Origin: a phage
Assembly: GCA_026683435.1 (NCBI GenBank)
Contig: GCA_026683435.1_4866.1
Reading direction: 5' to 3' (one strand)
Length of the DNA stretch: 64,000 bases
A program made the position numbers and the translations under genes. The first letter of the stretch is position 1. Every line of letters starts with the position of its first letter. Shown here one piece after another: positions 459-32,107 of this stretch. The notes below the pieces were generated by a model. That model did no database searches, was not told the origin of the DNA, and saw only the letters and a list, made by a program, of their open reading frames with translations.

Positions 459-500
459 AACCGCCCTTCCGTTATTGGGAGGGCGGTCTCCGTTTTATTA
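459..500 (+). terminator. putative intrinsic terminator
   Basis: Stem ACCGCCCT/AGGGCGGT followed by T-rich CTCCGTTTTATTA, between the stop at 424 and the RBS of the next gene. Confidence 0.4.
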
Positions 501-519
501 CAGATTAGGAGTGTTTGCA

Positions 520-3500
520 ATGCCGAGAGAAGATGCGGCGCAGTTTAACGGTACGCTCAGTACCGCTACTTACCCGAACCGTTATTCGGCGGTCATTCCC
601 GTCGAAGCACCGTTCTATCGCATCGGGTTAACGTTAACCGTTACCGATAAAACAACCGGAACCAAACGCAAGTTAATAGAAGGTCTCGATTATTTCTTAG
701 GACATTACTTCCAGGAATTAGCCGAGGCTGAGAACGATGCAATATACGGCAGCATAATGCTGCTGAACGCCACAGAGGTAGAATACGAGTTACTGTCGGT
801 TGGTCGACAGTATCGCATCCCTGCTTCTGAAATCGGCAAGTATCTGGTTAAGACAGATATGAAAGACCCGCGTAACTGCGATTGGTCTGAGCTGATGAAA
901 TATCCGCCGATTATCTCGCCAATCGACCCGCCAAAAGACCTCGAAGAAGCGATTCTTCACGATGAAATCGTAAAGGCGTTGGAAGATATCCGTCTGGGTA
1001 TTTTAGAGCGCGCCCACGAGCTGGATGAGGCTTTTGCCGAAGTTACCGATTTGATTTATCAGAACGGTAAGCAGGTGTTTGATGACGAAATGTATCAACA
1101 CCACCTGATTAAAAATGCACATGGTTACACCTGCGGTGACATTGGCGCTCTCCCGGTACTCGGCAAAGCCGTAGATGCGACTAAGGCATTCGGACGTACC
1201 CTGGCAGAGCTAGTGACGTTAATGTCTACCAGCGGCATCCAACAGAAACACGTTGACATGCTTCTGGATAATACCCTGGGTGATTTACTGGGCCGTATGC
1301 GTGTTCTGAATAACGACGCGATTACGTTCCAAACAACGTCTGGTCACGTTATCAGCATGAAGGGTGAGAAGTTCATCATCACCTCGACAAAACCGCTGGT
1401 ATTAAAAGCTGACCAGGATAACAACGAACCGGGCATCGCTACGGAGTTCAGTGCTGGTCTGAACACGCTTTGGGTTCACTCGGGTAAAGCAGGTGACAAG
1501 TGGGGCGCTTATGATGCAGGTGTGCTTGCACCTGTGTATAACAGCGTGTATCTCGTTACGCCGGATATGGTTAAGATGTACTTGACCTCGGTGAAGATAC
1601 TTCCAGCAAACGCCTACTTCAAGTCCAGCGACACGTTGAAGATTTACGGCTCTGGTAAAGAAACAAACAAACTTTACATGAATGCGGAGCTGCCTGCAGC
1701 AACCACAACTGTGCAGGGTTTGTTTGCGATTACTAACCTTTCGGCGTCCGCTGCAGCATCCACAGCGATTTCCCAAAAAGCTGTTACTGACTTGAAGAAC
1801 AAACTCGACGGATATGCGGACGACACGTATACAGTCAACGGTAAAGGGTTTGTGTTAGACGAAAACGGTCAAATGCATTTAACCTTAACCGCGTCGGATT
1901 TCGGTATTGAGAAGATGAACAATACCGGGCCGCTGGAGAAACCGGTTACTAACGCGTTGCGCACCGTTCTATCAGGCAAAGCGCTTACAACGCACACCCA
2001 CACCATTGCCGATCTCGATAACGTGCCGTACGCATCCACGTCTGTTACAGGTTTGGCTAAACTGTGGGATGCTATTGACACCACAACAGATAAGATGGTT
2101 ACTGCCCGTCAGGGTTTCTTGCTCGAACAAAAGATCGGTACACTGAACGACAAGATTGCTACGTTATTACCGGCGTGGACTGTCGGCGGATCATCGTACG
2201 GCAACAATAACTTCTTGCCTATACCTGTCCAGGGGAACTACGAAGGGTATACCAAAAACCAAACCTGGCAGAAAGGTTTGGCGCGTTACGAGTCTGGTAA
2301 GGTTTACTCGCTCCGTAACGGTTCTAACGGGAACCCACCTGGTGACTGGGCTATCTATTACGCCTATGCTGATGTGTCGCCAAGCAATACGCTGGAAAAT
2401 ATGCAGCAGACGTCCGTACGTTATCGACCCGCTGGAATGTCGGCGTATCCTGGGGTGAATCTGGTTGCTATTGTGATTACCGGTACCGATGCAATGATCT
2501 GCTTAGGCAGTGACGGTGCGTACTACTTGGTCATCTTCGATGGGACGATTGACCATGCAAAACATCATCGTGTTGTTAAAGTGGTGTTGGGTGATTACAA
2601 GAACGGTAATGGTGCGGGCACAGTAACGACAGCACCGTGGGCTCCAAACGCTTCTACAGACGATTTGATTGTTTGTAATGAACGTGTCTACCTGTTGCGT
2701 ACGGTGCTTACCTCCGGTAACTATTTCGTGAGTATGCGTAGCATCGCACTCAACGAACTTAATCCGGGTGGTAGCAACACGTTTGTGGCGGATGCGTTAA
2801 CAGGCGGGATATTAACGTCGGGTGAAAACGTTTATCTGCGACAGGGACAGAAACGTGCACCTTCCGATGCGCTCCCAGCACCAGTTACACAGATCTACGC
2901 AGACGCGTTAGCGAAGTGGAACAATGCAACCAACTTTGTACATGGTCCTGAGTGTAATCACGCGATTGGTGTTGATGGGCTGAGCTTTCGTGTTGGTTTA
3001 ACGCCAACGGTTTGGTTTGCTTCTACTACAGGGCAAACTATTAACTTTAAACAATGGGTGTCAAGCTTTGTTGTCGACTGTAGCGCATTAACGGTAACGC
3101 TGGAAGGTGCTGATCGATTCCCTATTGTGGCTGATCTTACCACGGTTCGTTATAACGGTGGTACTGAGATTGGGATTCCAAGCCGGAAGTGGGGCGAAGG
3201 TCAAGCTAATAACCGAACCTTTGCAACATCGCAAGACAAGTATATCGTTTCGCAAGGACATGCAGGCGATCGCGACCTAATGCCGATTGTCACGATTACC
3301 ACGTTAGACGACGGTGTGAGTTGGTACGAGTACCTGTCGTGCGACTACAACTTCACTGCCAGAAGGTTTAGTGCGGTAACGTTAAACCAAGGTCGTGGTT
3401 CTATCTACGAGCTGGGTATGGCGTATCCACTGACTCTGGGAGCGAATTCCAGACTTATCTGGTTGTCACAGCCACGTTCCCGTTTGGCAATTGAGGTTGA

Positions 3501-5703
3501 GTTTGATCCGAACACCACTTACTCAGGTAAAGCGGGGTATGGCCCAACTAACAATCGACGTGTAGTGGATTCTACCACGTACGAGAATCTGTCGCAGATG
3601 TGCCACATTGTTACACCGGCGTCGCCTGGTACAGAGTTAAACGGCTGGTATTGCACAGGACCAGAAACATTCCCTTACCACAACGTTTCTGGCACTTTCA
3701 CGATTCATGCCGATCGGTTGACGCTGTCACAAGCCGAATGGGATAAGATGAAGCAGATGATCATCGACGGTGCACCGGCAGGCGCTGCGAATGGTTATGC
3801 TTCGGAATTTATCCTTGCCGCAAATAACGCAGGAAAGGCATTGTTCTCCGTTTGGTTCATCGGCATTGGTACGGCCACACCGCTCACGTTAGCACAAGTA
3901 GCATGTACGCGTACTGTGAACAACGTTAACGTGTTGGATATCTACTACTTTACACTGAAACCAACAATCAGCAACGGGCAGGTAACATTCCCCGCAGCGA
4001 TATTGGCTTTGTTTGACTTCTATAACAACCTCGACTATGACTTGAACTATGCTACGTTGGGAGAGATAACGGGAGGAAAAACACGCCGGCCGGGACAACC
4101 TACCATGGTGTCGGTAGATGGTACGCAGTTCGGGTTGTATCTTCCACACACGTTAACCTTGCGCCAAATTGGCGACTTGGGTGCGCTTAACTACGCTGTT
4201 GGTCTTACGTTGTCTAATGGTACCTGGACGCGTTCTTCTGCTCCACACGGCGTTGGACGTATGGCACCGTCACACACTCCAGTCAGTCCAGCTTATCTGG
4301 CACATCGCGATCAAGTGATGTTACACAACTCATCTCTCGACTACGTCTATTGTGGTGGTATCGCAACGTCGTCGAGAGATTTTGTCGCGGCTCCTAATTT
4401 TAGTGGCCCGACTGAATCGGTTGTCATTGCTGGTGTGGAAACAGCTGAAGGTTGGCTGGTATATGTGACTGAGGAAGTTGACCTGCGTTTCGGCTCGAGC
4501 ACTTATAAGCTGCCTACGTGGTATATTGACCTCAGCGCAGCATTTCCAACAAACCATCAGAACCGGACATTCTACCTGCACGCCAAGGTAGAAAATGGTA
4601 CACCGAAGTACGTAATGGACGTGATTCAACATCCAGACACTGAAACGGAACTCTATATCGGGTATGTTAAAACGGGCTCGTCGCGAGTCGTCGAGACTAA
4701 CGTCGAACATGCTAAGCGATTAGGGGCGGTGAAACAACTGTTGGAACATGCGGCGGTTGAGAATAAGCATGATGTGGAAGTGGGAAGGGACGCAGCAACG
4801 GGCAGACTGGCACCATTGCGTAAAGAAGCGATGGGTCCTTTGTCGATCGATGCTACGAAAGGCTATCTGGATAGTCAGTTGCTTTATACCGTATCTGACG
4901 CACAGCGTCGCGGTAAACCGATGGTCTCCAAACGTTTCGAAGGCTTGAAAACTTTGCCGGCGTTTACTCAGGCAAACAAGTCGGGGGCGTTTTGGAAACA
5001 TCCTACAACAATTGCGACGGTAACGGCCGATGAGAACGGTGAAGCGGCATCGTTGGGAATGGAGTGGGTAGGTATCCCTACGCCTGCTTTCTCTCCGACC
5101 TCAGGAACGATGATAGTGGTGATACAAAGTAAATTCGTCGTCCCAGGTACACCGGGAGTAGAAACGACCTTTAATGTTCACGTTGCCCCATGGGAGGCGG
5201 TGGACGGCTTTTTCTACAACATCGAGGCGGAAGGTACGGATGTTAACATTGACGAAAATCCAGAAGTGTTATTGCCGTCACCACATACCGTGCACCACAA
5301 ACAGCACTCTCTGCCAGCAGGCGTGCCGTGCACCTTTACATTTGTCGCGGCGGTAAGTTCTTCAGCGCTCGAAACAGCTAACCAGCATATTTGCTCTTGG
5401 CTTTTCACGGACGCTGGGGGTCTACCAATCACCACCGATCTTTCGGATAGTAAGATTCAAATCTTACCAGCGGCGGGAGAGACCAACGGCACACCAGTTG
5501 TTCTGAACAGTCGTAGCTACACGTTTACGAATGTGACAGGTGCAATCCCGGTTGTTACCACGGGCGCTCAGGGTTTATTCCCACCACCGATCGTGGCGTG
5601 GGATGGCGATGATCTTACGTTAACGATTGCGCACGATTGGGTGAACGAGAGAGGATGGCAACAGCCTGATATTATCCAGGTCAATCTTATGTTCCGTACC
5701 TAA
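520..5703 (+). CDS. large tail-fibre-like virion protein (about 1727 aa)
   Basis: Uninterrupted 5.2-kb ORF. AGGAG lies 8 nt upstream of ATG 520; the ORF-track start 475 is an upstream TTG inside the terminator hairpin. Gly/Thr/Asn/Ser-rich with an 'ASTSVTGLAKL' fibre-type motif. Function inferred from composition and size. Confidence 0.7.
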   Translation: MPREDAAQFNGTLSTATYPNRYSAVIPVEAPFYRIGLTLTVTDKTTGTKRKLIEGLDYFLGHYFQELAEAENDAIYGSIMLLNATEVEYELLSVGRQYRIPASEIGKYLVKTDMKDPRNCDWSELMKYPPIISPIDPPKDLEEAILHDEIVKALEDIRLGILERAHELDEAFAEVTDLIYQNGKQVFDDEMYQHHLIKNAHGYTCGDIGALPVLGKAVDATKAFGRTLAELVTLMSTSGIQQKHVDMLLDNTLGDLLGRMRVLNNDAITFQTTSGHVISMKGEKFIITSTKPLVLKADQDNNEPGIATEFSAGLNTLWVHSGKAGDKWGAYDAGVLAPVYNSVYLVTPDMVKMYLTSVKILPANAYFKSSDTLKIYGSGKETNKLYMNAELPAATTTVQGLFAITNLSASAAASTAISQKAVTDLKNKLDGYADDTYTVNGKGFVLDENGQMHLTLTASDFGIEKMNNTGPLEKPVTNALRTVLSGKALTTHTHTIADLDNVPYASTSVTGLAKLWDAIDTTTDKMVTARQGFLLEQKIGTLNDKIATLLPAWTVGGSSYGNNNFLPIPVQGNYEGYTKNQTWQKGLARYESGKVYSLRNGSNGNPPGDWAIYYAYADVSPSNTLENMQQTSVRYRPAGMSAYPGVNLVAIVITGTDAMICLGSDGAYYLVIFDGTIDHAKHHRVVKVVLGDYKNGNGAGTVTTAPWAPNASTDDLIVCNERVYLLRTVLTSGNYFVSMRSIALNELNPGGSNTFVADALTGGILTSGENVYLRQGQKRAPSDALPAPVTQIYADALAKWNNATNFVHGPECNHAIGVDGLSFRVGLTPTVWFASTTGQTINFKQWVSSFVVDCSALTVTLEGADRFPIVADLTTVRYNGGTEIGIPSRKWGEGQANNRTFATSQDKYIVSQGHAGDRDLMPIVTITTLDDGVSWYEYLSCDYNFTARRFSAVTLNQGRGSIYELGMAYPLTLGANSRLIWLSQPRSRLAIEVEFDPNTTYSGKAGYGPTNNRRVVDSTTYENLSQMCHIVTPASPGTELNGWYCTGPETFPYHNVSGTFTIHADRLTLSQAEWDKMKQMIIDGAPAGAANGYASEFILAANNAGKALFSVWFIGIGTATPLTLAQVACTRTVNNVNVLDIYYFTLKPTISNGQVTFPAAILALFDFYNNLDYDLNYATLGEITGGKTRRPGQPTMVSVDGTQFGLYLPHTLTLRQIGDLGALNYAVGLTLSNGTWTRSSAPHGVGRMAPSHTPVSPAYLAHRDQVMLHNSSLDYVYCGGIATSSRDFVAAPNFSGPTESVVIAGVETAEGWLVYVTEEVDLRFGSSTYKLPTWYIDLSAAFPTNHQNRTFYLHAKVENGTPKYVMDVIQHPDTETELYIGYVKTGSSRVVETNVEHAKRLGAVKQLLEHAAVENKHDVEVGRDAATGRLAPLRKEAMGPLSIDATKGYLDSQLLYTVSDAQRRGKPMVSKRFEGLKTLPAFTQANKSGAFWKHPTTIATVTADENGEAASLGMEWVGIPTPAFSPTSGTMIVVIQSKFVVPGTPGVETTFNVHVAPWEAVDGFFYNIEAEGTDVNIDENPEVLLPSPHTVHHKQHSLPAGVPCTFTFVAAVSSSALETANQHICSWLFTDAGGLPITTDLSDSKIQILPAAGETNGTPVVLNSRSYTFTNVTGAIPVVTTGAQGLFPPPIVAWDGDDLTLTIAHDWVNERGWQQPDIIQVNLMFRT

Positions 5704-5750
5704 CAGATAGCGCTATGGGGCAAGGAAGCCCCAATCAAAGGAGTTTGGCA

Positions 5751-6953
5751 ATGGCCGAAATCATTCATCAGTACCCGCTCGACCTTACCGGGACATTAAC
5801 GTCGAACGCCGTTACACGGCGTATTACGTTAGGTTCTGGTAAAGTTAACCGGGCTTTTGCTTTTCCTGACGGAGCTTTCTACGCGGATACCTTCCGCTTG
5901 GCAGCTGCGAATAAACCAGGTGTCTACCCGTACAAACGCGGTACAGACTACGAACTGATTTTTGCACATACTGCATATCAGAAAATGACCAAGAACCGTG
6001 AAGTGGTCATGGGTGTGGTGGTAACTAACTCGGCCATTCCTACTGATATCGAAGTCTCTGCGCAAGTCGTTGGTGGTTTTCAGTCTGCGAACGTCGAAGG
6101 CATCCGACAAGCGATTGCGTCGTTGAAAATTGAAGACCGTGTGGTGGACTTCAAGGATCTTCGAAACGTACCCGATACGTTCCCGTCCGCCCCGACGTAT
6201 AAAGACCTTGGCGATATCTACGGTTTTGAGTATATCATTACCGTACTCGCGGGGATTAAAGATGCGATTAACTCCGGCTCTGCAGTACAGCTGGAAGAAA
6301 TTAAAGGTATTCTGGATGGTCTGAAAAACGACTTCCTCGACGCCTTAAATACCCACATCAACGCCGAAGGTAACGTACACAATCTCGACATTCATCAGGT
6401 TAATGGCCTGACGGAGACGGAGATTCGTGCCCTGATTCAAAGTGTACAGACTGCCATTGACGCCACTATCAAAGATATCGGCGACTTAAGAGCAGCAGAC
6501 ACAGCGTTGGGGCAACGCATCGATGCAATTGTGGCTTCGTTAGCCGCGTGGAACGACCAGCTTAACGTGGTTGCTCAAAATTACCAGAAAATGTCGTTAG
6601 CATTAGCTAACCTTAATTCTCTGGTGTTGCAATTACAGAAGATGGTTAACGATCTTCAGTCTGCACTGAATAAAACAAATCAGCGCGTCACGGATCTTGA
6701 GAATCAGGGCAAAGACTTCCAACAGCAAATTGATAACCTGCAAGGACAAATCAACAGTCTTAAAACTCAGGTTGTAAATAACACCAACGCAATTTCGCAG
6801 GCAAACCAGAATCTGGCGAACCATGCGGCTGCGGATAACCCACACCCGAATTACCTCCATAAACAGTATGGCGGTGTTGTGCAGGCTGCTGTTCACGTCA
6901 ACAACAGCCTCACCTCGCGCGACGATGTTCAAGCTGAAGCGGGTACTAAGTAA
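5751..6953 (+). CDS. fibre-associated protein with long C-terminal coiled coil (fibritin- or tail-fibre-like)
   Basis: AAGGAG lies 9 nt upstream of ATG 5751; the ORF-track ATG 5715 has no RBS. C-terminal half is heptad-like and Q/N/L-rich (LQLQKMVNDLQSALNKTNQRVTDLENQ...). Confidence 0.65.
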   Translation: MAEIIHQYPLDLTGTLTSNAVTRRITLGSGKVNRAFAFPDGAFYADTFRLAAANKPGVYPYKRGTDYELIFAHTAYQKMTKNREVVMGVVVTNSAIPTDIEVSAQVVGGFQSANVEGIRQAIASLKIEDRVVDFKDLRNVPDTFPSAPTYKDLGDIYGFEYIITVLAGIKDAINSGSAVQLEEIKGILDGLKNDFLDALNTHINAEGNVHNLDIHQVNGLTETEIRALIQSVQTAIDATIKDIGDLRAADTALGQRIDAIVASLAAWNDQLNVVAQNYQKMSLALANLNSLVLQLQKMVNDLQSALNKTNQRVTDLENQGKDFQQQIDNLQGQINSLKTQVVNNTNAISQANQNLANHAAADNPHPNYLHKQYGGVVQAAVHVNNSLTSRDDVQAEAGTK

Positions 6954-6965
6954 CTTGTTTACGAG

Positions 6966-7007
6966 CCGGACTATGTTTATGGACATAGTCCGCTCGTTCT
7001 ACTTTTT
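6966..7007 (+). terminator. hairpin plus T-run (terminator or attenuator) upstream of the Cys-repeat peptide genes
   Basis: 10-bp perfect stem CGGACTATGT/ACATAGTCCG with a 6-nt loop, followed by TTCTACTTTTTAA. Confidence 0.4.
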
Positions 7008-7018
7008 AAGGAAGCGTA

Positions 7019-7411
7019 ATGGCGATATCTATTAAAGACGTCAGAAACCGCGTCCAGATAGTCGAAGCTAACATGGCGACAGGCCCCCGTATCGACGCGC
7101 AAGTGGCCTCTAAAGCCCATAATGCGGCAGACCGATTTGGGGGTTGGACGAAAGCACAGCTAGATTGCGGCGGGACATGTTCTTGGACGTGCTCTAACGG
7201 TTGCTCGCATGGCTGTTCGAGCTGTTCAGGAAGCTGTTCTGCTTCTTGTATCGGTAGCTGTTCTTCGACGTGTGGCGGTAACTGTTCTGGTTGCTCTGGT
7301 TGTTCTGGTGGTTGCAGTAGTAGCTGTACCGGTAACTGCTCAGGTGGTTGCGGGGGGGCTTGTTCTTCCAATTGTTCCGGAGCCTGCTCCGGTGGCTGTT
7401 CAGGTCGCTAA
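7019..7411 (+). CDS. Cys/Ser/Gly-repeat small protein 1 (130 aa; putative RiPP-like precursor)
   Basis: AAGGAAG RBS. About 50-aa Cys-free N-terminal region conserved with the next two ORFs, then about 80 aa with about 21 Cys mostly as C-S-x-x units. Confidence 0.6.
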   Translation: MAISIKDVRNRVQIVEANMATGPRIDAQVASKAHNAADRFGGWTKAQLDCGGTCSWTCSNGCSHGCSSCSGSCSASCIGSCSSTCGGNCSGCSGCSGGCSSSCTGNCSGGCGGACSSNCSGACSGGCSGR

Positions 7412-7421
7412 GGGGGATTAA

Positions 7422-7826
7422 ATGGCAATTGGATTAAAAGAACTGAATAACCGATTAAACACGATCGATGCAAACGCTTTAAAGAACACCACGAATGTGC
7501 AAAACTACATTCGCAATAAAGCTACGAATAACGCCGACTTGTTCGCAGGTCAAGGTCGTTCGCACTACGACTGTGGTGGTACGTGTTCTTTTAGCTGCTC
7601 AAGTTGCTCTGGCGGCTGCACAGGGTCTGCGACAGGTGGTTGTGGGTCGACTTGTTCCGCAAACTGTGTATCAGGCTGTAGCAGCAGCTGCACGGGCTGT
7701 AGCTCTTCGTGCTCTGGTGGTTGTAGCGGCACGTGCACAGGCAGCTGTTCTGGGGGTTGTGGTAAATCCTGCTCCGCAAACTGCTCAGGTGCGTGCTCTG
7801 GTGGTTGTTCAGGTCCTAACTCCTAA
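7422..7826 (+). CDS. Cys/Ser/Gly-repeat small protein 2 (134 aa; putative RiPP-like precursor)
   Basis: AGGGGG RBS. Paralogous to 7019-7411 with the same leader-like N-terminus (MAI..K.(V/L)(R/N)NR(V/L), ..NAAD(R/L)F.G, ...(H)YDCGGTCS) and about 20 Cys in the core. Confidence 0.6.
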   Translation: MAIGLKELNNRLNTIDANALKNTTNVQNYIRNKATNNADLFAGQGRSHYDCGGTCSFSCSSCSGGCTGSATGGCGSTCSANCVSGCSSSCTGCSSSCSGGCSGTCTGSCSGGCGKSCSANCSGACSGGCSGPNS

Positions 7827-7841
7827 CTGACGGAGGCTTAT

Positions 7842-8048
7842 GTGATCAGTCTCAAGACTATTCGAAACCGTCTCGTTACGGTAGAAGGTTACATTACAAC
7901 CGCACAGGCAAACAACTATATTGCTAACCAGGGCACCGTGTCGACCACAAATAACCTGGCTGGCTTACCGCTTTCTCACTATAACTGTAATGGTGGGTGT
8001 AGCTGGTCCTGCAGCGGAAGCTGTAGCCGTGGAGCGGGGAATCGATAA
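7842..8048 (+). CDS. Cys/Ser/Gly-repeat small protein 3 (68 aa; short-core paralogue)
   Basis: GGAGG RBS with a GTG start. Conserved leader-like N-terminus (MISLKTIRNRL...LSHYNCNGGCSWSCSGSCS) and a short core with 4 Cys. Confidence 0.55.
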   Translation: MISLKTIRNRLVTVEGYITTAQANNYIANQGTVSTTNNLAGLPLSHYNCNGGCSWSCSGSCSRGAGNR

Positions 8049-8070
8049 CAGAAAACGTTCGGAGTATTAA

Positions 8071-8958
8071 ATGAAAAACGATTTGCATCTTGCGTATAAA
8101 ACCACATTCAACCACCCGCTGCATCTATCTTCCCCAGATTCAGTGCGTGCACACCTTGCTGACAAAGTCAGACTGATTGCACAGATTCCTGGTGAGTGGC
8201 CAAAGGTTCGTGGTCGCTTCTTGACCGACAAGAAGAACTACACCGTAGAAAATACGTTTAAGATCCGTGATATGGTTGCAGAGGCCATCGTTATCTTTAA
8301 CGGCGATGGTAACTCTCGTGGCGTGTTAGTCGACGGTAAGTATTTCTTCAGTGAAGGGATTTTGAACAACAGCGTCGATTTAGAACTGATGTTTACACCG
8401 TTTGACGAACTTGAAGCAAAACCGATGGCGCGCCGTTGGTGGAGTCCGGACTATCTGGGCTCGTTCCCTTACTACTTTGTACTGGTACCTGCCGATACGG
8501 AAACGTATTTCGACACCGAACCATACATCGATATCGAGGGGTATAAAGAACTCGGCATCACCCGTTTAGCGGACATGATGGCGTATAGCTATAAGTTCGT
8601 GTGGGATAAAAAGCGTTCTGTCTGGTATGCGCTGACTGACGATTTTGAAATCACCAAACGTATTCGTAAGCCGTGGATGCAACACCTGGTTCAAACCCGA
8701 TATGGGGATTACCCGGCGACAGAAGCGGACTTGAGTAAGCTGGTAAGCTTCCTCTTAACAAAGGTGGATTTAACGAAAGAAGAAGCAGAAGCTGTTTCTG
8801 AGATTCGTGGTCGTTCGGTAACGTTGGCCGATTTGAAACGTCTGAACGAAAGACACGCCGACCTGAACAAAATTTTAGCTGCCTATCACGACCCGATGTT
8901 ACTGGTGCCTGGCGCTAATGTAGACGAAGATCCTTTATTCGCCATTGATTATATTTAA
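8071..8958 (+). CDS. hypothetical protein (295 aa) in the rSAM cassette
   Basis: GGAG RBS. Co-oriented and tightly packed between the peptide genes and the rSAM genes. No motif recognised. Confidence 0.65.
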   Translation: MKNDLHLAYKTTFNHPLHLSSPDSVRAHLADKVRLIAQIPGEWPKVRGRFLTDKKNYTVENTFKIRDMVAEAIVIFNGDGNSRGVLVDGKYFFSEGILNNSVDLELMFTPFDELEAKPMARRWWSPDYLGSFPYYFVLVPADTETYFDTEPYIDIEGYKELGITRLADMMAYSYKFVWDKKRSVWYALTDDFEITKRIRKPWMQHLVQTRYGDYPATEADLSKLVSFLLTKVDLTKEEAEAVSEIRGRSVTLADLKRLNERHADLNKILAAYHDPMLLVPGANVDEDPLFAIDYI

Positions 8959-8980
8959 AAATATACTGGAGCAACCTGCA

Positions 8981-9895
8981 ATGACAGATCAAGTAGAATC
9001 CAGGATCTCGTCTGAACTGTACGACAAACCGTCAATTCTGTCGGTTGTCGCAACTTCTAAGTGTAACTTAGACTGTAGCTTCTGTGGAGGGGCTTATTAC
9101 ATGGATAGAGAAGATACTTCTCGTGAGTTTCAACGTGAAGAGATTCTCTCGATTTTAGAGAAGAATCCGGATATCGGTGAGATTCATTGGACGGGCGGTG
9201 AGCCGCTGTTAGCGCAGCGTAAGATTGAAGACTTCGTGAACGAGTTGAAGGAGTCTCATCCTAACCTCCGTCATCACATGTACACCAACGGTTTAAAGAT
9301 GCGTAAATCACATCTGCCGTTGCTGAAACAGTTCGACCTTATCTTTGTGTCCATTGACGGCTACAAGAAGTCGGAACGTCCGTTTATGAACTTTGTAAAC
9401 GGTGGTAATCACGAAGCGCTGGAAGTGCTGTACGAGCTGGACAACTATTACACCTGGGGTGTGATGACGCGTGACCAGTTAGGCGATAAACGCTGGTACG
9501 AAGATTTCATCGAGCTGCACCGAGCAATCTATCATTACCGTCCAGGTGGTGTGTCGTTGTTGTTTGATGCGATGATGCCGAAACCGTTATCGCCAGACCA
9601 CGTCATGAACTTCATGTACGGGTATTGGAAAATACTCGACAATATCGAACGCCTTAACATGCAGAACGATTCTGAATGTGGGCTTGCGATCAGTAAAATG
9701 TTCGATACCGAGTGCAACACGTGCAGTGAAGTGCTGTGGCTTAACGCCGACGGTACGCAGGAGCAAATTCAGAACGCCCCAGAGATATTGGAAGTCGGCT
9801 GTAATCGCCTGGCGCGTTCTATCGGCGTTGATGCGTATAACTACATCAACCGTGTAATTTCTGCTAAGCGTAAACGGGCGGCGAACAATGAGTAA
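8981..9895 (+). CDS. radical SAM enzyme (about 304 aa)
   Basis: CNLDCSFC (CX3CX2C) near the N-terminus, GGEPLL glycine motif, and C-terminal Cys cluster (C-x11-C-x2-C). ATG 8981 has a GGAG RBS; the ORF-track start 8945 is a TTG overlapping the previous gene. Confidence 0.8.
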   Translation: MTDQVESRISSELYDKPSILSVVATSKCNLDCSFCGGAYYMDREDTSREFQREEILSILEKNPDIGEIHWTGGEPLLAQRKIEDFVNELKESHPNLRHHMYTNGLKMRKSHLPLLKQFDLIFVSIDGYKKSERPFMNFVNGGNHEALEVLYELDNYYTWGVMTRDQLGDKRWYEDFIELHRAIYHYRPGGVSLLFDAMMPKPLSPDHVMNFMYGYWKILDNIERLNMQNDSECGLAISKMFDTECNTCSEVLWLNADGTQEQIQNAPEILEVGCNRLARSIGVDAYNYINRVISAKRKRAANNE

Positions 9896-11216
9896 TAGCG
9901 AACAGCAAATCCAGTACACACCACGCACGTATCAGGTTGTGACTAACCTGTCATGTAACCTGGACTGCGAATACTGCTACGAGCGTAAATATCCGCGTAA
10001 CAACAAAGTAGCAGACGTGATTGATTTTATCCACGCTTGTTTCGAGCGTGATAAAGATATCCCGAACGTTGAAGTCATCATCGATATCATCGGTGGTGAG
10101 CCGTTCATGCAGCCTAAACTTCTTTTGGCGGCCTTTGAAACCGCAGAGAAGTTATGCGCAGAACACAATCGCCCGTATATGTTCAGTATCTCCACGAACG
10201 GTACGCTTCTGGACCGTCCGCTGAACAAAGAAATTATCGAGCGCTGGAAAGACAAACTGTCTATTGGGGTCTCCATCGATGGTTTACCTGAAGTCCATGA
10301 CAAATATCGTATCTTTACCACGACGCGTGAAGGGTCGTACGAAGCTGCGGTACGCGGTTACAATTATCTGAAGAGTGTTGGCATCGCTGAGCTGGGCGTA
10401 AAGGCGACGTTTACGATCGATACATTGCCGCACTATGCCGCCAGCATGAAATCGTTAATTGACATGTCCGGCGGTGGTACCATCTCTGGTAACGTAACGT
10501 ACGAAGATATCCTGCCGCGCCATATGGCGTTGGATATCGCGAACCAGATGATGGACGTGATGGACTACTGGATTGAGAAGGGTCTGCACACCAACCCGCG
10601 TAACACGATTACACACATCATCCCGGATGGCCTGAACTTTATGGCAACTTGGGACCCGGATTGGCGTGACAAACTCTTACATGACGACTCTGTTCGTCTC
10701 GACCCAGAACGCCTGAAACCGTACTGCGGTACGTTGACGCACATGACCTGTCTCGGCTTTGATCGCAAGATTTACGGTTGTAACCGTTTCATGTCCACGG
10801 TAACTTCCCGCTCTGCTGTAGCAGAACTGGTCGGTCGTGAGTTTGTGAGCCTGGACGGTGGTAAGCTGTTAGAAGAGATTCAAACGCAGTACACCAACTA
10901 CCCAGAAACCTGTTTAGGGTGTCCGATGAAACACAGCTGCGGTAGCTGCGCAGCAGCATCGTACGAAAACGGTGAAGGTACACTGGAAGACCGTAAAGCG
11001 TATCATGCCGAGCGTCGTCAGTGTGGTTGGACTACTGCGAAGCTGATGGCGGCGGAATATTGGTATCAGAAAACTGGTACGACCCGCGCATCAGATTTGC
11101 ATGATAAATCCATGTGCTATTGTTCACGTTGTGTACGCCAACGTGCTGAAGCAGAAAAATTACAAAACGGAGCCCAGAATGAAGTCAATACTGATTCACA
11201 ATTTTACGAAGCGTAA
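9888..11216 (+). CDS. radical SAM enzyme with SPASM-type C-terminal domain (anSME-like RiPP maturase fold)
   Basis: CNLDCEYC (CX3CX2C), GGEPFM, STNGTLL and SIDG motifs, and C-terminal CLGCPMKHSCGSC plus further Cys. Start overlaps the stop of the previous rSAM gene (ATGAGTAA). Confidence 0.8.
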   Translation: MSNSEQQIQYTPRTYQVVTNLSCNLDCEYCYERKYPRNNKVADVIDFIHACFERDKDIPNVEVIIDIIGGEPFMQPKLLLAAFETAEKLCAEHNRPYMFSISTNGTLLDRPLNKEIIERWKDKLSIGVSIDGLPEVHDKYRIFTTTREGSYEAAVRGYNYLKSVGIAELGVKATFTIDTLPHYAASMKSLIDMSGGGTISGNVTYEDILPRHMALDIANQMMDVMDYWIEKGLHTNPRNTITHIIPDGLNFMATWDPDWRDKLLHDDSVRLDPERLKPYCGTLTHMTCLGFDRKIYGCNRFMSTVTSRSAVAELVGREFVSLDGGKLLEEIQTQYTNYPETCLGCPMKHSCGSCAAASYENGEGTLEDRKAYHAERRQCGWTTAKLMAAEYWYQKTGTTRASDLHDKSMCYCSRCVRQRAEAEKLQNGAQNEVNTDSQFYEA

Positions 11217-11745
11217 ACTGCACTTGGTCGATCGCTTCCTGCGCAAAAGCAAGCTGTACAATGTGCACGCAATTGTGGCAGGGGAAGACTTCACTGATGA
11301 AATCCAAAGCCTGTTGATTAAATACGGGCTGAACGTGATGATCCCGGTCTACTGCGTTGAGAAAGGACACGAGTCTGTCGCGGAAATCGAAAAGCGCAAT
11401 CCTGGCTTTGAGAAGCGACTGCTCGCATACCCACGCCACAAAATCGAACTGCTACGTCATTCCATCGATGAAGCCAGTCCTGAAAGTTTAGTGGCTTTGG
11501 GCTTGTCTTTCCCGCGGATGCGTATTCGTAACTTACGCTCCAATAATCCGGTCGACGCGTATTACACAGAGCGTCAAATCTTCGAAGAACACCTGCTCCC
11601 GCAGTTGGAAGAAGAAGAGCAACACAACATTTCTGTGTTGTGGGCCGGTAACCTCGATCAGGACTTCCAGATGCTGGACTTCGGTTTGTTGTTAGAACTT
11701 GGCCTGATTGAGGAGGACGAATGTCTGTTACTGACAAAAGCTTAA
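11179..11745 (+). CDS. hypothetical protein (about 188 aa), cassette accessory candidate
   Basis: ACGGAG upstream of ATG 11179. The ORF-track start 11101 lies deep inside the rSAM gene. Confidence 0.55.
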   Translation: MKSILIHNFTKRKLHLVDRFLRKSKLYNVHAIVAGEDFTDEIQSLLIKYGLNVMIPVYCVEKGHESVAEIEKRNPGFEKRLLAYPRHKIELLRHSIDEASPESLVALGLSFPRMRIRNLRSNNPVDAYYTERQIFEEHLLPQLEEEEQHNISVLWAGNLDQDFQMLDFGLLLELGLIEEDECLLLTKA

Positions 11746-12392
11746 CGAACGAAGAGATCCGCGCCCGTTATTTCCAGCGTGATTTGCCGATTGATCGTCA
11801 CGGTAATTTCATGGAACGAATCGGTGCGCAGGATCAGGGTCGTACCGGATTTTGTGCATTACTCCATTACCATCTCATCGAAGGGATGTCTGATAAAGAA
11901 GCCCTGGCACGTATGAAGCTGTATGAGATGTCGGAGATTGAAGCTAACTTCACATTGAAACGCACGAAAGAGTTTATTGCTAATGTGCTGGAGATTGACC
12001 TCGACGAAATTCGCGGGAATCTGAAATCCACCGCACGTTACATTTACGAAGACGTGCAGAAGATGCTGTTGGAACTTGACCACCGCTACGAAGATGAGCG
12101 TCATGGTTATATCGAGTTTGAAGGTAGCCACTTTCAAGCCGATGAATCGTCGCGCGCCATCCTCGGTCAATACATTCAGGCAGATACCGCACCAGAATAC
12201 TGGCTCGATACGCTGAATACTAAGCACAGTCCGTTTACAGTAGACCAATGTAAAGCGTTGTTGGGCGCTATTGTTGCACGCGACCAGGTGTTGCACTCAG
12301 CAATGGCAGATAACAAACGCCAAATCCGTGAGTTAGCTGAAAAGCGCGATTACACCGGTTTAAAAACATTGTCCGAATCACTCGGCATGTAA
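11721..12392 (+). CDS. hypothetical protein (223 aa), last gene of the rightward block
   Basis: GAGGAGGA RBS. Overlaps the previous gene by 25 nt and is followed by a strong terminator. Confidence 0.65.
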   Translation: MSVTDKSLTNEEIRARYFQRDLPIDRHGNFMERIGAQDQGRTGFCALLHYHLIEGMSDKEALARMKLYEMSEIEANFTLKRTKEFIANVLEIDLDEIRGNLKSTARYIYEDVQKMLLELDHRYEDERHGYIEFEGSHFQADESSRAILGQYIQADTAPEYWLDTLNTKHSPFTVDQCKALLGAIVARDQVLHSAMADNKRQIRELAEKRDYTGLKTLSESLGM

Positions 12393-12406
12393 GCAAAGAA
12401 AATAAA

Positions 12407-12450
12407 GGCCCTACCTCCCCGAAGGGAGGTAGGTACCTTTTATTTATTTC
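12407..12450. terminator. bidirectional intrinsic terminator at the strand-polarity switch
   Basis: Stem CTACCTCCC/GGGAGGTAG with CGAA loop, flanked by T-runs on both strands, between convergent genes. Confidence 0.65.
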
Positions 12451-12472
12451 TTAGAAACTACTAATTGCTCTG

Positions 12473-13021
12473 TTACACGACAGTGTGACCTTCGCCGCCG
12501 AATCCGCCCAGTTCACCGTTGGTGGTGCTCAGGTCAGTTTTAACGATTGGCTGCGTTACAGTATAAACTGCAAGGCTGGCAGGTTGGTATTTAATGTGGC
12601 CTTCTTTCACCTTAACAGTGATGACTTTCTCACCACTGCTGCCGTCCTCGCGTGTAATGGTGAGTTCAGACAACGCAAACGCATCTTCCGTTTCACCGTC
12701 GCCAAATAGTTCTGCGTTGACAAAAGCAAGCACTTCTTCATCGGTATCCCATTCTGCCTGGTCAGCGGTAACTGCTTTCGCACCGATGATGTTCGATGAA
12801 TCGAGGCGGGTATAATGCAGCTCTTTCTCGCCAGTAAAGTTAGCGGATTCCGCGGTGGCAGTGATGGTGAGTTTGGAGTTGCGAGTGTCTCCAGAATCTG
12901 CTGGTGAATAGTCAGCAACAGCGCCGAATGTAACGTCAGCAGAAGTTAACGGACTAGACAGTCCGCTGTTTGCAGCATTAAACAGCGCGACGAGTTGGTC
13001 TTTTGCAGAGATGACTGCCAT
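12473..13021 (-). CDS. small member of the fibre-associated paralogue family (182 aa)
   Basis: AAGGAAA RBS. N-terminal module with 'LHYTRLDSSNI' (family Y-x-R-L motif) and C-terminal 'NGELGGF' shared with the 470-aa paralogues. Confidence 0.65.
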   Translation of the reverse strand: MAVISAKDQLVALFNAANSGLSSPLTSADVTFGAVADYSPADSGDTRNSKLTITATAESANFTGEKELHYTRLDSSNIIGAKAVTADQAEWDTDEEVLAFVNAELFGDGETEDAFALSELTITREDGSSGEKVITVKVKEGHIKYQPASLAVYTVTQPIVKTDLSTTNGELGGFGGEGHTVV

Positions 13022-19424: not shown

Positions 19425-19429
19425 TGCAA

Positions 19430-19466
19430 CGTCCTAAAAAAAGAAAATAGGCCCTTCGGGGCCTAT
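19430..19466 (-). terminator. intrinsic terminator
   Basis: Stem ATAGGCCC/GGGCCTAT with TTCG loop on the transcript, then T-run, immediately before the start at 19424. Confidence 0.5.
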
Positions 19467-19639
19467 TTTTAGCTGTTATGGTGAAGTACGCTATCCCTTT
19501 AACTCCAGCTGATTCGACCTGCGTGTTGGGGATTATCCCGCTGAATGAGCCGACACAACAGCTCAAGTGCAGTGGATGAGTAAAACCCCATATTAGCTCC
19601 TGTTAGCTAAGAACCAATTCGATAACGTGGACTACCGAC

Positions 19640-20078
19640 GCGCTACTGTTCGAAGAGATGTACGATGGTGAGTCTGGATAAGTGGCGCGATAATACCACG
19701 TGTTGGCGTTGCCAGCGATTTGATAGGCGCGTCTACCGACTGTACACTGCTATCAGATAACCAAACACCGTATAAATCACGTAGAGCTGGGAGAAGATCC
19801 CGCACGGTCTTGGCCGTTTGTGGTACGTAGACGCGCGGAGCTATTTAAAATAGATCTGATAATGTTAAACGGTCGTAATAAACCGTGCACTCCCCAGAGA
19901 AACCTTTACCGGGTTTACCTACCAACGTAATTACCGTGTTACGACCATTCTTAGTGGTCTCGGCAGGAATACCCCTCACCCCAATCGAATCAGCGCTGAT
20001 TCTTCCTGCGAGTTCAGGGTTATCCCTTACAACCTGTTGGCAGAGCAGTTCCAGTTCGGGTGCGCTATACAATCCCAT
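19640..20078 (-). pseudogene. truncated, decayed copy of the 472-aa fibre paralogue
   Basis: First 77 codons are about 75% identical to the N-terminus of 21991-23409 and end at a TAA where the intact copy has Lys. About 68 further codons still resemble the paralogue, then the frame ends. The following 200 bp or so has no ORF. Confidence 0.55.
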
Positions 20079-20089
20079 GAAGTCTCCTG

Positions 20090-21978: not shown

Positions 21979-21990
21979 TGTCGTTACCTC

Positions 21991-23409: not shown

Positions 23410-23422
23410 GGTATTTACTCCA

Positions 23423-24346: not shown

Positions 24347-24355
24347 GACTGCCCC

Positions 24356-25354: not shown

Positions 25355-25365
25355 GGATGATACCT

Positions 25366-26778: not shown

Positions 26779-26827
26779 AGGGACTCCGCATCGCCAAAAG
26801 AGGGGGGGCTCCGAAGAGCCCCTACAC

Positions 26828-28546: not shown

Positions 28547-28556
28547 TCGCTAATTC

Positions 28557-29414: not shown

Positions 29415-29465
29415 AAAAGAAAGGAGTAGCCAGGAGGAGGATTTCCTCCTCCCAGCGAGGCCTAA

Positions 29466-30377: not shown

Positions 30378-30398
30378 TCTTACTTCCTTTACTCAGGA

Positions 30399-31244: not shown

Positions 31245-31254
31245 GTCAAAATCC

Positions 31255-32097: not shown

Positions 32098-32107
32098 CTA
32101 TACCCTC

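What the first reader, a model, noticed from the sequence alone, without database searches (positions are those of the whole stretch)
7019..8048. Precursor-like peptide family: fixed C-x3-C periodicity, variable core length, repeat-driven shadow ORFs
Seen: the cores are built from 4-residue units C-S-x-x (CSGG, CSSS, CTGN, CSAN), giving about 21, 20 and 4 Cys in the three paralogues. The leader-to-core junction is conserved ((H)Y(D/N)C(G/N)GGxCS(W/F)), as are the leader N-terminus and the NAAD(R/L)F.G element. The repetitive DNA creates long overlapping ORFs in other frames and antisense (7006-7371, 7209-7421, 7495-7830); these lack an RBS and the conserved leader, so the Cys frame is the coding one. 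Inference: core-length variation (80, 84 and 18 aa) suggests expansion or contraction by repeat slippage, with a conserved leader for enzyme recognition.
Basis: seen in the sequence. Interest (0 to 1): 0.7.

Follow-up and report, generated by a model that had tools for sequence, protein, structure and literature searches.

The report
Cysteine-repeat phage proteins with radical-SAM maturases
Three small proteins of a giant Salmonella phage, with a cysteine at every fourth residue, lie beside two radical-SAM enzymes inside the tail-fibre gene block; the same pairing recurs in unrelated phages, which suggests phages chemically cross-link part of their tail fibres, something I found no description of.

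Summary
ORFs 7019-7411, 7422-7826 and 7842-8048 encode 130, 134 and 68 aa proteins with 21, 20 and 4 Cys, almost all spaced C-x3-C. Comparison with phages about 80% identical in DNA shows the Cys frame is the coding one (core of A: 47 synonymous to 1 non-synonymous change). The window is a SPN3US-like jumbo phage.

The three genes head a conserved cassette: accessory protein (gp165), radical SAM (gp164), radical SAM/SPASM maturase (gp163) and gp162. The maturase's best curated match is the CXXX-repeat-target family, below cutoff. 77 of 80 viral loci with a maturase homologue carry a CXXX-tract ORF.

The RiPP-precursor reading is only partly right. In other phages the same junction motif and CXXX tract form the C-terminus of full-length tail-fibre proteins, or occupy the T7 gp17 fibre slot. 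Cys number is fixed across five genera (A always 21), the core is more conserved than the "leader", and a nearly coreless paralogue is conserved. No protease or exporter was recognised.

Most likely these are tail-fibre-module proteins whose Cys tract is cross-linked by the co-encoded enzymes. The chemistry and virion location are untested. Repeat slippage is not supported.

The parts
475..5703 (+). Context: giant tail protein (SPN3US gp168 homologue, 1742 aa)
   Evidence: phrog_7449 and virion structural PHROGs. SPN3US gp168 was detected in virions and is a tail protein similar to phiKZ gp131, which was localized to the baseplate periphery and fibres (PMC5694885, PMC5105663).
5751..6953 (+). 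Context: coiled-coil virion structural protein (SPN3US gp167 homologue). The ORF could start at 5715; the annotated start corresponds to 5751.
   Evidence: phrog_2163 virion structural protein at 7e-109, weak tail-fibre PHROG hits and coiled-coil Pfam hits. gp167 was detected in SPN3US virions.
6961..6997 (+). Stable hairpin followed by a U-rich run, between gp167 and ORF A. Possibly a terminator or attenuator, or an RNA-stability element.
   Evidence: RNA fold gives dG -24.1 kcal/mol and z = -4.5 against shuffles, with 0 of 200 shuffles as stable. It was not called by the simple terminator scan.
7019..7411 (+). Paralogue A: 130 aa, made of a 49-aa N-domain and junction followed by an 81-aa CXXX tract with 21 Cys
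   Evidence: phrog_6085 at 5e-40. TIGR04114 at 18.0 bits (cutoff 20).
7422..7826 (+). Paralogue B: 134 aa with 20 Cys
   Evidence: phrog_6085 at 3e-41. TIGR04114 at 17.1 bits.
7842..8048 (+). Paralogue C: 68 aa, GTG start, N-domain and junction with only 4 Cys (short-core or coreless type)
   Evidence: Orthologues with 2 Cys in CR5, Kwan and Phobos, and a 69-aa equivalent in L097.
8071..8958 (+). Accessory protein (SPN3US gp165 homologue, 295 aa). It is conserved with the cassette and its function is unknown.
8981..9895 (+). Radical SAM protein 2 (gp164 homologue). It has CX3CX2C plus four C-terminal Cys and matches no SPASM-family model over its full length. An alternative TTG start lies at 8945.
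   Evidence: PF04055 at 1e-15. Cys positions. Full-length homologues in L011 (2e-14) and L097 (1e-30).
9888..11216 (+). Radical SAM/SPASM peptide-maturase-like enzyme (gp163 homologue, 442 aa)
   Evidence: Best NCBIfam hit is TIGR04115, the CXXX-repeat target family (3e-36, 125.6 bits, cutoff 350). Next is PapB NF047865 (1e-32, model positions 12-319 of 330). CX3CX2C lies at 23/27/30, and SPASM-type Cys at 280, 288, 298, 342, 345, 351, 354 and 379 are invariant or nearly so in the family alignment. The closest solved structure is CteB 5WGG at 3e-10.
11179..11745 (+). gp162 homologue (188 aa), unknown function, conserved downstream of the maturase
   Evidence: phrog_7988. A homologue sits in the same position in L097 (6e-11).
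11721..12392 (+). DUF4376 protein (gp161 homologue). The domain is common in tail-fibre-associated proteins, and this is the last gene of the block.
   Evidence: PF14301 at 5.6e-9. Weak hit to the tail PHROG phrog_2837.
12410..12433 (.). Bidirectional intrinsic-terminator-like hairpin that ends the + strand block
   Evidence: Stem of 10 bp with 7 GC pairs, and T-runs on both strands.

Best explanation
ORFs A, B and C are small proteins of the tail-fibre/baseplate-periphery gene module of a SPN3US-like jumbo phage. They are probably not precursors of a diffusible peptide.

Each has three parts: (i) a short N-terminal amphipathic helix with a 3-4-3-4 hydrophobic pattern, which probably mediates oligomerisation or docking; (ii) a conserved segment ending in the junction N-x-x-(L/F)-x-G...Y-x-C-x-G-x-C-S-W-x-C; and (iii) in A and B, about 80 residues of C-(S/T/G)-x-x repeats.

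The Cys tract is the substrate of the co-transcribed enzyme set: the SPASM radical SAM gp163, the second radical SAM gp164, the accessory protein gp165 and gp162. The enzymes probably install a ladder of intrachain cross-links, most likely Cys thioethers as in the nearest characterised relatives PapB, CteB and QhpD. That would turn a Gly/Ser/Cys-rich tract into a rigid, protease-resistant fibrous element attached to the gp167/gp168 fibres.

Shown here: the coding frame, purifying selection, the conserved cassette, the pairing of maturase with CXXX tract, and the occurrence of the same domain at the C-terminus of genuine fibre proteins and in fibre gene slots. Inferred: that the enzymes act on A and B, the type of chemistry, and incorporation into the virion.
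For: (1) Maturase-substrate pairing. gp163's best curated match is the CXXX-repeat-target maturase TIGR04115. In 77 of 80 IMG/VR loci chosen only for a gp163 homologue, a CXXX-tract ORF lies on the same strand nearby. A distant phage system nearly meets the curated thresholds: maturase 309 bits against a cutoff of 350, target 28.9 against 20.

(2) Conserved cassette. Peptides, accessory protein, rSAM2, rSAM1 and gp162 are syntenic in five genera and in the distant L097 (accessory 2e-27, rSAM2 1e-30, gp162 6e-11).

(3) Fibre identity. In L011, L012 and L014 the same junction and CXXX tract form the C-terminus of 258-568 aa proteins. These carry HxHDxRY(Y/F)TExE repeats with weak PF12789 'phage tail repeat' hits, and sit beside GpJ-like or T4 gp13-like genes, followed by the accessory protein and paired rSAMs. 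In T7-like contigs L095 and L096 the CXXX protein occupies the gp17 fibre slot, after a gene that carries only the T7 fibre N-terminal domain. It shares its N-domain (tail-fibre phrog_5073) with a neighbouring collagen-repeat protein. In L040 it lies between baseplate-wedge and tail-fibre genes. Of 10 sampled upstream neighbours, 3 are tail fibre and none has any other non-tail functional annotation.

(4) In the window the genes follow gp168 and gp167, both found in virions, and gp168 is a tail protein.

(5) Fixed architecture. A has 21 Cys in all five genera, the core is more conserved than the N-domain, and the coreless C-type is conserved.

(6) No protease, transporter or RRE was recognised.
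Against: There is no direct evidence that A, B or C is modified or is in the virion. SPN3US virion proteomics could not have found them, because the GenBank record annotates the shadow ORF (gp166) instead. gp161-166 were not detected in virions, which fits enzymes and chaperones but says nothing about A, B and C.

The leader-plus-core shape and small size are what a RiPP precursor looks like. Tail-fibre regions are also known hot spots for accessory genes, so position alone is weak evidence. The AF2 model of A is uninformative (pLDDT 49), and no solved structure contains such a tract.

gp163 and the peptides fall below the curated NCBIfam cutoffs. The cores contain no Asp or Glu, the acceptors used by PapB and QhpD, so the cross-link chemistry cannot be transferred directly from them. 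The T7-slot argument rests on gene order only.
Confidence: 0.55

Rival explanations
1. A true phage-encoded RiPP. A, B and C are precursor peptides whose roughly 48-aa leader guides the radical SAM enzymes. The leader is then removed and the cross-linked Cys-rich core is released at lysis as a diffusible product, for example an antibacterial, anti-competitor or signalling peptide.
For: The proteins are small with a leader-like N-terminus and a repetitive core. They lie next to a SPASM radical SAM related to the ranthipeptide/sactipeptide maturases PapB and CteB. The curated family names treat CXXX repeats as rSAM peptide targets. Multiple precursor paralogues are common in RiPP loci (general knowledge).
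Against: No protease, exporter or immunity gene was recognised in the block. The maturase has no N-terminal RRE, since its CX3CX2C motif starts at residue 23, and the accessory protein has no detectable fold match. The core is more conserved than the leader, with a fixed Cys count across five genera. The same domain is fused to the C-terminus of 258-568 aa fibre proteins and fills fibre gene slots. Coreless C-type paralogues are conserved, which makes no sense for a product precursor.
Confidence: 0.2
2. Non-virion assembly factors. The modified or unmodified Cys-rich proteins act inside the cell as scaffolds, chaperones or caps for assembly of the gp167/gp168 fibres and are not retained in the particle. 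Alternatively, C acts as a decoy or regulator for the maturases.
For: The cassette sits among tail-fibre assembly-type genes: DUF4376, and an annotated tail assembly chaperone a few genes downstream. gp161-166 are absent from virions. The coreless C-type keeps only the N-domain and junction, which would fit a regulatory or capping role.
Against: In other phages the tract is covalently part of the fibre protein itself. In T7-like contigs no other gene is available to supply the distal fibre. An intramolecular chaperone would usually be removed by a protease, and none was recognised.
Confidence: 0.15
3. Unmodified metal-binding or disulfide-rich proteins, metallothionein-like or keratin-associated-protein-like. 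On this reading the neighbouring radical SAM enzymes act on something else, such as gp167, gp168 or a small molecule.
For: Cys makes up 24-26% of the cores of A and B, in a Gly/Ser-rich background. Weak, non-significant similarity to Cys-rich disulfide modules (EGFR, nematocyst minicollagen-type domains; E 0.03-4.5).
Against: Co-occurrence of the CXXX tract with the maturase in 77 of 80 independently chosen loci. The maturase's closest curated families are Cys-peptide cross-linkers. Regular C-x3 spacing differs from metallothionein's C-x-C and C-x-x-C clusters (general knowledge). A phage protein made in the reducing cytoplasm of the host would not readily form disulfides before lysis (inference).
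Confidence: 0.07

Closest known systems
CXXX-repeat radical SAM peptide modification system (NCBIfam TIGR04114 target repeat, TIGR04117 target protein, TIGR04115 maturase; Pfam PF27846 tSAM_targ_Cxxx_rpt). This is an in-silico defined system. I found no experimental characterisation in the searchable literature.
   Same: Tandem C-x-x-x repeats in the target. An adjacent SPASM radical SAM whose best curated match is TIGR04115. More than one radical SAM gene in the locus. Distant phage relatives (L040) nearly or fully meet the curated thresholds, and the L012 fibre carries PF27846.
   Different: The window's maturase scores 125.6 bits against a cutoff of 350, and the peptides score 18.0, 17.1 and 13.7 against a cutoff of 20. 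The window type ('class I') has its own junction motif (N-x-x-L-x-G...Y-x-C-x-G-x-CSW-x-C), its own accessory protein family (phrog_8030) and a tail-fibre context. Some bacterial members instead carry signal peptides (P0224, P0229).
PapB/PapA (freyrasin), a ranthipeptide system in which a SPASM radical SAM makes six Cys-to-Asp beta-thioether rings on repeated C-S-A-N-D motifs (from my knowledge of the published work; NCBIfam NF047865)
   Same: gp163 aligns to the PapB model over nearly its whole length (positions 12-319 of 330, E 1e-32). Like that model, it lacks an N-terminal RRE extension. The substrate is a tandem short Cys-containing repeat, and 'CSAN' even occurs in B.
   Different: The score of 113.6 is below the 340-bit cutoff. 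The cores here have no Asp or Glu acceptor, and the residue at +4 is the next Cys. A second radical SAM and two further conserved proteins are present. The context is a phage tail module.
CteB/SCIFF (Cys-Thr thioether ranthipeptide; PDB 5WGG) and the sactipeptide maturases
   Same: CteB is the closest solved structure by sequence (E 3e-10). The substrates are Cys-rich peptides and the enzymes have SPASM auxiliary clusters.
   Different: SCIFF has six Cys in about 45 residues, with no periodic repeat. CteB carries an N-terminal RRE domain, which gp163 lacks (the alignment starts at CteB residue 106).
QhpD/QhpC, a radical SAM enzyme that installs Cys-Asp/Glu thioethers inside a subunit of quinohemoprotein amine dehydrogenase (my knowledge; NCBIfam TIGR03906 hit at 3.8e-15)
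   Same: It is a precedent for SPASM radical SAM cross-linking of a functional protein rather than a secreted natural product. That is the logic proposed here.
   Different: The target is an enzyme subunit rather than a virion protein, with three cross-links on a non-repetitive sequence and carboxylate acceptors.
Repeat-based fibrous modules of phage tail fibres: collagen-like G-X-Y repeats and the 'phage tail repeat' PF12789
   Same: The CXXX tract occupies the same position in modular fibre proteins. In L095 and L096, one protein with collagen-like G-X-Y repeats and one with a CXXX tract share the same N-terminal domain.
   Different: A four-residue Cys-based period, and obligatory association with radical SAM enzymes. 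No structure is known.

Membership tests
CXXX-repeat rSAM system (TIGR04114/04115/04117, PF27846) | Target protein contains tandem Cys-Xaa-Xaa-Xaa repeats | tested here: met
   Spacing of 4 in 17/20 (A), 16/19 (B) and 3/3 (C) Cys intervals.
CXXX-repeat rSAM system (TIGR04114/04115/04117, PF27846) | Target scores at or above the curated TIGR04114 cutoff (20 bits), or matches PF27846 | tested here: not met
   18.0, 17.1 and 13.7 bits, just below the cutoff. PF27846 is absent from the local Pfam copy, so it could not be tested on the window. Relatives carry it in precomputed annotation.
CXXX-repeat rSAM system (TIGR04114/04115/04117, PF27846) | Adjacent maturase scores at or above the TIGR04115 cutoff (350 bits) | tested here: not met
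   125.6 bits, E 3e-36. It is the best of all NCBIfam models but well below the cutoff. The class II phage homologue in L040 reaches 309 bits.
CXXX-repeat rSAM system (TIGR04114/04115/04117, PF27846) | Maturase and target are encoded side by side | tested here: met
   They lie in the same co-directional block in the window. 77 of 80 viral loci show the same pairing.
SPASM-domain radical SAM peptide maturases | CX3CX2C radical SAM cluster motif plus a C-terminal seven- or eight-Cys SPASM motif | tested here: met
   C23/27/30, and C280, 288, 298, 342, 345, 351, 354 and 379, invariant or nearly so across 13 homologues. Full-length alignment to SPASM families.
RiPP natural product (leader/core precursor) | Short precursor with an N-terminal leader and a C-terminal core next to its modifying enzyme | tested here: met
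   The form is met: a 48-50 aa N-region, a Cys core and rSAM genes nearby.
RiPP natural product (leader/core precursor) | Leader removal and export: a protease and/or transporter in the cluster | tested here: not met
   No protease or transporter family was hit in any gene of the block with Pfam, NCBIfam or PHROGs. Host enzymes cannot be excluded.
RiPP natural product (leader/core precursor) | A RiPP recognition element (PqqD-like) in the maturase or a partner | tested here: inconclusive
RiPP natural product (leader/core precursor) | Leader conserved and core comparatively free to vary between relatives | tested here: not met
   The core is more conserved than the leader (synonymous to non-synonymous 47:1 against 15:13 in A). 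The Cys count is fixed over five genera.
Ranthipeptide/sactipeptide (thioether cross-linked) | Cys sulfur to carbon thioether bonds installed by the rSAM | not testable with these tools
   This needs mass spectrometry or NMR of co-expressed product.
Ranthipeptide/sactipeptide (thioether cross-linked) | Membership of a characterised maturase family (PapB NF047865 cutoff 340; SCIFF TIGR03974 cutoff 425) | tested here: not met
   113.6 and 53.9 bits.
Phage tail-fibre protein | Gene lies in the tail-fibre/baseplate module | tested here: met
   The genes lie directly after gp168 and gp167 (virion, tail) and before DUF4376. The same holds in L011, L012, L014, L040, L095 and L096.
Phage tail-fibre protein | Sequence homology to recognised fibre proteins | tested here: inconclusive
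   A, B and C themselves hit only phrog_6085, of unknown function. That profile does align to the C-termini of proteins with fibre N-domains (phrog_5073, weak PF12789), and A aligns to the L012 fibre C-terminus at 2e-11.
Phage tail-fibre protein | Physical presence in the virion | not tested
   The ORFs are missing from the SPN3US annotation used for proteomics. No data set could be re-searched here.

The most novel reading that the evidence does not exclude
Phages from several unrelated lineages build part of their tail fibres from a cysteine-every-fourth-residue repeat, which phage-encoded radical SAM enzymes cross-link after translation. The lineages seen here are phiKZ/SPN3US-like jumbo myoviruses, a T4-like contig, GpJ-type prophages, T7-like podoviruses and gut myoviruses. 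This would be RiPP-type chemistry used to manufacture a virion structural or receptor-binding element. In SPN3US-like phages the element is split off as three mini-fibre chains (A, B and coreless C), which may assemble through their N-terminal helices.
Probability: 0.45. Interest if true: 0.85.

Novelty: new variant of a known kind. Interest (0 to 1): 0.72.

Why it matters
Radical SAM/SPASM peptide maturases are known as makers of small secreted natural products, and in one case of an enzyme subunit. If the reading here is right, the same chemistry is a widespread way of building phage adsorption organelles. It would also be a kind of structural post-translational modification I found no report of for tailed phages.

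That would matter in four ways:
- It would explain why jumbo phages and many metagenomic phages carry otherwise puzzling radical SAM genes, which are often labelled as auxiliary metabolic genes.
- It would point to a new fibrous protein motif with unusual stability.
- It would affect host-range engineering and heterologous production of such phages, because the fibres would need the maturase cassette and an Fe-S/SAM-competent host.
- It would give the uncharacterised CXXX-repeat system a tractable model in SPN3US, a genetically workable Salmonella phage.

There is also an immediate practical point. Reference annotations, including SPN3US RefSeq, call the wrong frame or strand here, so the real proteins have been invisible to proteomics.

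Tried and rejected
(1) Repeat slippage. TRF and repeat finding show only weak DNA repeats. Orthologues in five genera keep the same Cys number and spacing. Rejected as an active process; only Kwan B shows a two-unit gain.

(2) Shadow ORFs as genes. Rejected by codon-position analysis.

(3) Structure of peptide A. AF2 with a 27-sequence alignment gave pLDDT 49, which is unusable, so I did not run a fold search on it.

(5) Pfam on the peptides gave no hits. The relevant model PF27846 is not in the local copy.

(6) BLASTP of B against the L011 fibre failed because of composition adjustment. Profile comparison with phrog_6085 succeeded instead.

(7) Literature. Ten searches (CXXX repeat, TIGR04115, SPN3US with radical SAM, radical SAM with tail fiber, SPASM with phage and tail, and others) found no description of this system. 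The Haft and Basu 2011 paper could not be opened.

(8) No tRNA genes were found anywhere in the window, and Rfam found no RNA families in 5600-12600.

(9) The metallothionein-like reading was considered and ranked low; see the rival explanations.
Full report
**What is there.** The window is from a SPN3US-like jumbo phage of the genus Seoulvirus. Region 5700-9000 is 98.8% identical to Salmonella phage SPLA1a and 97.7% to SPN3US. Three adjacent + strand ORFs, 7019-7411 (A, 130 aa), 7422-7826 (B, 134 aa) and 7842-8048 (C, 68 aa, GTG start), encode proteins with 21, 20 and 4 Cys. Cys-to-Cys spacing is four residues in 17/20, 16/19 and 3/3 intervals, and the cores are almost entirely Cys, Ser, Gly and Thr. 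Each ORF has a Shine-Dalgarno-like sequence upstream. The three align over a 48-50 residue N-region and a junction, (H)Y(D/N)C(G/N)GxCS(W/F)xCS.

**Which frame is real.** I compared the window with two relatives whose DNA is only about 80% identical, SPAsTU and Erwinia phage pEa_SNUABM_29. In the core of A, codon differences are 47 synonymous to 1 non-synonymous, and 42:2, in the Cys frame. In the other two forward frames they are 1:46 and 7:39. B and C behave the same way. The Cys frame is therefore translated and strongly constrained, and the shadow ORFs are by-products. Several public records annotate the wrong ORFs. SPN3US gp166 (GenBank and RefSeq) is the shadow ORF at 7495-7830, and the CR5, Kwan, Phobos, pEa29 and Asesino records carry antisense or off-frame calls.

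**No sign of slippage.** DNA repeats in the region are only 60-76% identical and TRF scores are low. Orthologous trios occur in Seoulvirus, Machinavirus, Erskinevirus, Derbicusvirus and Wellingtonvirus. Paralogue A has exactly 21 Cys in all of them, and its spacing string always begins 44443444. B has 20 or 21 Cys, with 23 only in Kwan. C has 4 Cys, or only 2 in CR5, Kwan and Phobos. The core is more conserved than the N-region: 47:1 against 15:13 for A. This is a fixed architecture, not a length-variable array.

**The enzymes.** Downstream, in the same co-directional block that ends at a strong bidirectional terminator (12410-12433), lie five genes:
- A 295-aa protein with no family assignment (8071-8958, SPN3US gp165).
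- A radical SAM protein (8981-9895, gp164).
- A 442-aa radical SAM/SPASM protein (9888-11216, gp163).
- A 188-aa protein (gp162).
- A DUF4376 protein (gp161).

The best NCBIfam match of gp163 is TIGR04115, 'radical SAM peptide maturase, CXXX-repeat target family' (3e-36), followed by the ranthipeptide maturase PapB over nearly the whole model (1e-32). Both are far below the curated cutoffs. gp163 has the CX3CX2C motif and a full set of conserved SPASM cysteines. Its closest solved relative is the SCIFF thioether synthase CteB. The peptides score just under the cutoff of the matching target model TIGR04114 (18.0 and 17.1 against 20).

**Is the pairing general?** I collected 80 viral-contig loci solely on the basis of a gp163 homologue. 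In 77 of them an ORF with a long CXXX tract lies nearby on the same strand. A profile of the junction plus core found 196 proteins, which fall into two main classes:
- Class I has the window's junction motif, for example '...GDADTLDGQHGSYYRCESGCSWTC...'.
- Class II has a different N-domain of about 110 aa and very long tracts, up to 63 Cys in 370 aa.

Some bacterial members carry signal peptides. A class II phage system (L040) nearly meets the curated definition: its maturase scores 309 bits against a cutoff of 350, and its target passes TIGR04114. The window's system is therefore a divergent branch of the in-silico defined CXXX-repeat/radical SAM system.

**Why I do not think these are simply RiPP precursors.** The nearest non-jumbo homologues of gp163 (33-39% identity) all lie in phage or prophage tail modules. 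There the same junction and CXXX tract form the C-terminus of full-length fibre-like proteins:
- A 302-aa protein in a Deferribacter prophage, with HxHDxRY(Y/F)TExE repeats, ending '...KATNADQLGGQAGSYYRCSDCSWTCSSSC...'.
- A 568-aa protein on a 213-kb contig next to a T4 gp13-like gene.
- A 258-aa protein next to a GpJ-like gene.

These are followed by homologues of gp165 (2e-9 and 1e-7), of gp164 (2e-14) and of gp163. Peptide A aligns to the 568-aa protein's C-terminus, beginning exactly at the junction (2e-11). The PHROG family of A, B and C (phrog_6085) aligns to these C-termini from profile position 5-35 onward. Most of the supposed leader is thus homologous to an internal fibre segment.

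Class I proteins of about 210 aa have N-domains that hit a tail-fibre PHROG. In two T7-like contigs they sit in the gp17 fibre slot. They come after a gene that contains only the T7 fibre N-terminal domain and after a small protein with collagen-like G-X-Y repeats that shares their N-domain, and radical SAM genes follow. In a gut-phage contig the CXXX gene lies between baseplate-wedge and tail-fibre genes. Of ten sampled upstream neighbours in other loci, three are tail-fibre proteins and none has any other non-tail functional annotation.

In the window itself the genes follow gp168 and gp167. Both are found in SPN3US virions, and gp168 is a tail protein related to phiKZ gp131, which lies at the baseplate periphery.

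**The coreless paralogue.** A distant contig (L097) reproduces the window's layout: a 119-aa CXXX protein, a 69-aa protein that ends right after the junction ('...YYDCGGSCSWTASGR'), the accessory protein (2e-27), rSAM2 (1e-30), rSAM1 and a gp162 homologue (6e-11). A conserved precursor without a core makes little sense for a natural product. It does make sense for a chain that takes part in an assembly or regulates it. The N-termini of A, B and C share a 3-4-3-4 hydrophobic pattern, which I read directly from the alignment. AF2 predicts a helix for residues 5-20 of A at modest confidence. Oligomerisation through this helix, possibly as a hetero-oligomer of A, B and C, is an inference only.

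**What remains unknown.** The chemistry is untested. Thioether cross-links are the obvious guess from the nearest characterised relatives, but the cores lack the Asp or Glu acceptors that PapB and QhpD use. The roles of gp164, gp165 and gp162 are unknown. gp165 gives a confident model (pLDDT 87.5) with no recognisable fold relative, and it belongs to a tiny family of 47 representatives among 1.84 billion proteins. The monomer model of peptide A is uninformative.

Virion presence has never been tested, because the ORFs were absent from the annotation used for SPN3US proteomics. gp161-166 as annotated were not detected. Ten literature searches found no description of radical SAM-modified phage fibre proteins or of the CXXX system's chemistry. 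Subscription-only literature was not searchable.

**Verdict.** The best-supported reading is that A, B and C are tail-fibre-module proteins whose Cys-every-fourth tract is cross-linked by a dedicated, conserved radical SAM cassette. I put the maturase-substrate pairing at about 0.85, a structural or virion role at about 0.55, and thioether chemistry at about 0.4. In kind it is a new, phage tail-associated variant of the predicted CXXX-repeat/radical SAM system. If the structural role is confirmed, it would be an unreported way of building a phage adsorption organelle.

Noticed in passing
window 7495-7830 (+); also L005 4377-4589(-), L006 4608-4985(-), L009 4135-4956(-), L004 5421-6140(-), L008 4356-4940: Public annotations call the wrong frame or strand over the Cys-repeat genes. 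SPN3US gp166 (YP_009153460) is the shadow ORF, and several Erwinia and Cronobacter phage records carry antisense or off-frame 'hypothetical proteins'. The real A, B and C proteins are therefore missing from proteomics databases.
   Followed up: yes
window 6961-6997: Very stable hairpin (dG -24 kcal/mol, z -4.5) followed by a U-rich run, between the gp167 stop codon and the ORF A ribosome-binding site. It may be a terminator or attenuator that sets lower expression of the downstream cassette.
   Followed up: partly
window 18105-32905 (- strand): A tandem array of about 14 genes (roughly 265-470 aa each), mutually related at 22-42% identity. It probably corresponds to one of the virion paralogue families reported for SPN3US (PMC5694885), but I did not map it.
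   Followed up: partly
L040 9026-12257: In a gut-phage contig, a tail-fibre gene directly downstream of the CXXX/rSAM cassette is followed by a reverse transcriptase (phrog_1423, 4.6e-87). The arrangement resembles a diversity-generating retroelement that targets the fibre.
   Followed up: no
L095 8330-10336: In a T7-like contig the two radical SAM proteins are fused into one 668-aa polypeptide: rSAM2-like at the N-terminus and PapB/TIGR04115-like at the C-terminus. This supports the idea that they work as a unit.
   Followed up: partly
L095 5921-7621; L096 6029-7642: T7-like phages with a split tail fibre: a gene carrying only the T7 fibre N-terminal domain, a small protein with collagen-like G-X-Y repeats, and a CXXX-repeat protein that shares the latter's N-domain.
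   Followed up: partly
window 11179-11745 and L097 10567-11085: The 188-aa gp162 homologue is conserved immediately after the maturase in a very distant phage (6e-11), so it probably belongs to the cassette.
   Followed up: partly
window 12473-13021 (- strand): By position this gene corresponds to SPN3US gp160, which converges on the cassette's terminator. Virion proteomics reported gp160 as a high-abundance protein (more than 300 copies, 'head ejection?'; PMC5694885), so a head protein gene abuts the fibre block.
   Followed up: no
records LR535901, LR535903-LR535908, LR535911-LR535913 (SPFM phages): Several SPFM phage records match this locus only in dozens of short pieces (for example 40 pieces covering 73%), and their proteins appear frameshifted. 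This looks like error-rich assemblies rather than real divergence.
   Followed up: no
P0224, P0229: Some bacterial CXXX-repeat proteins carry signal peptides, apparently twin-arginine type ('RRDFIKT', 'RREFFKK'), in place of a fibre N-domain. The same repeat is therefore also used in exported bacterial proteins.
   Followed up: no
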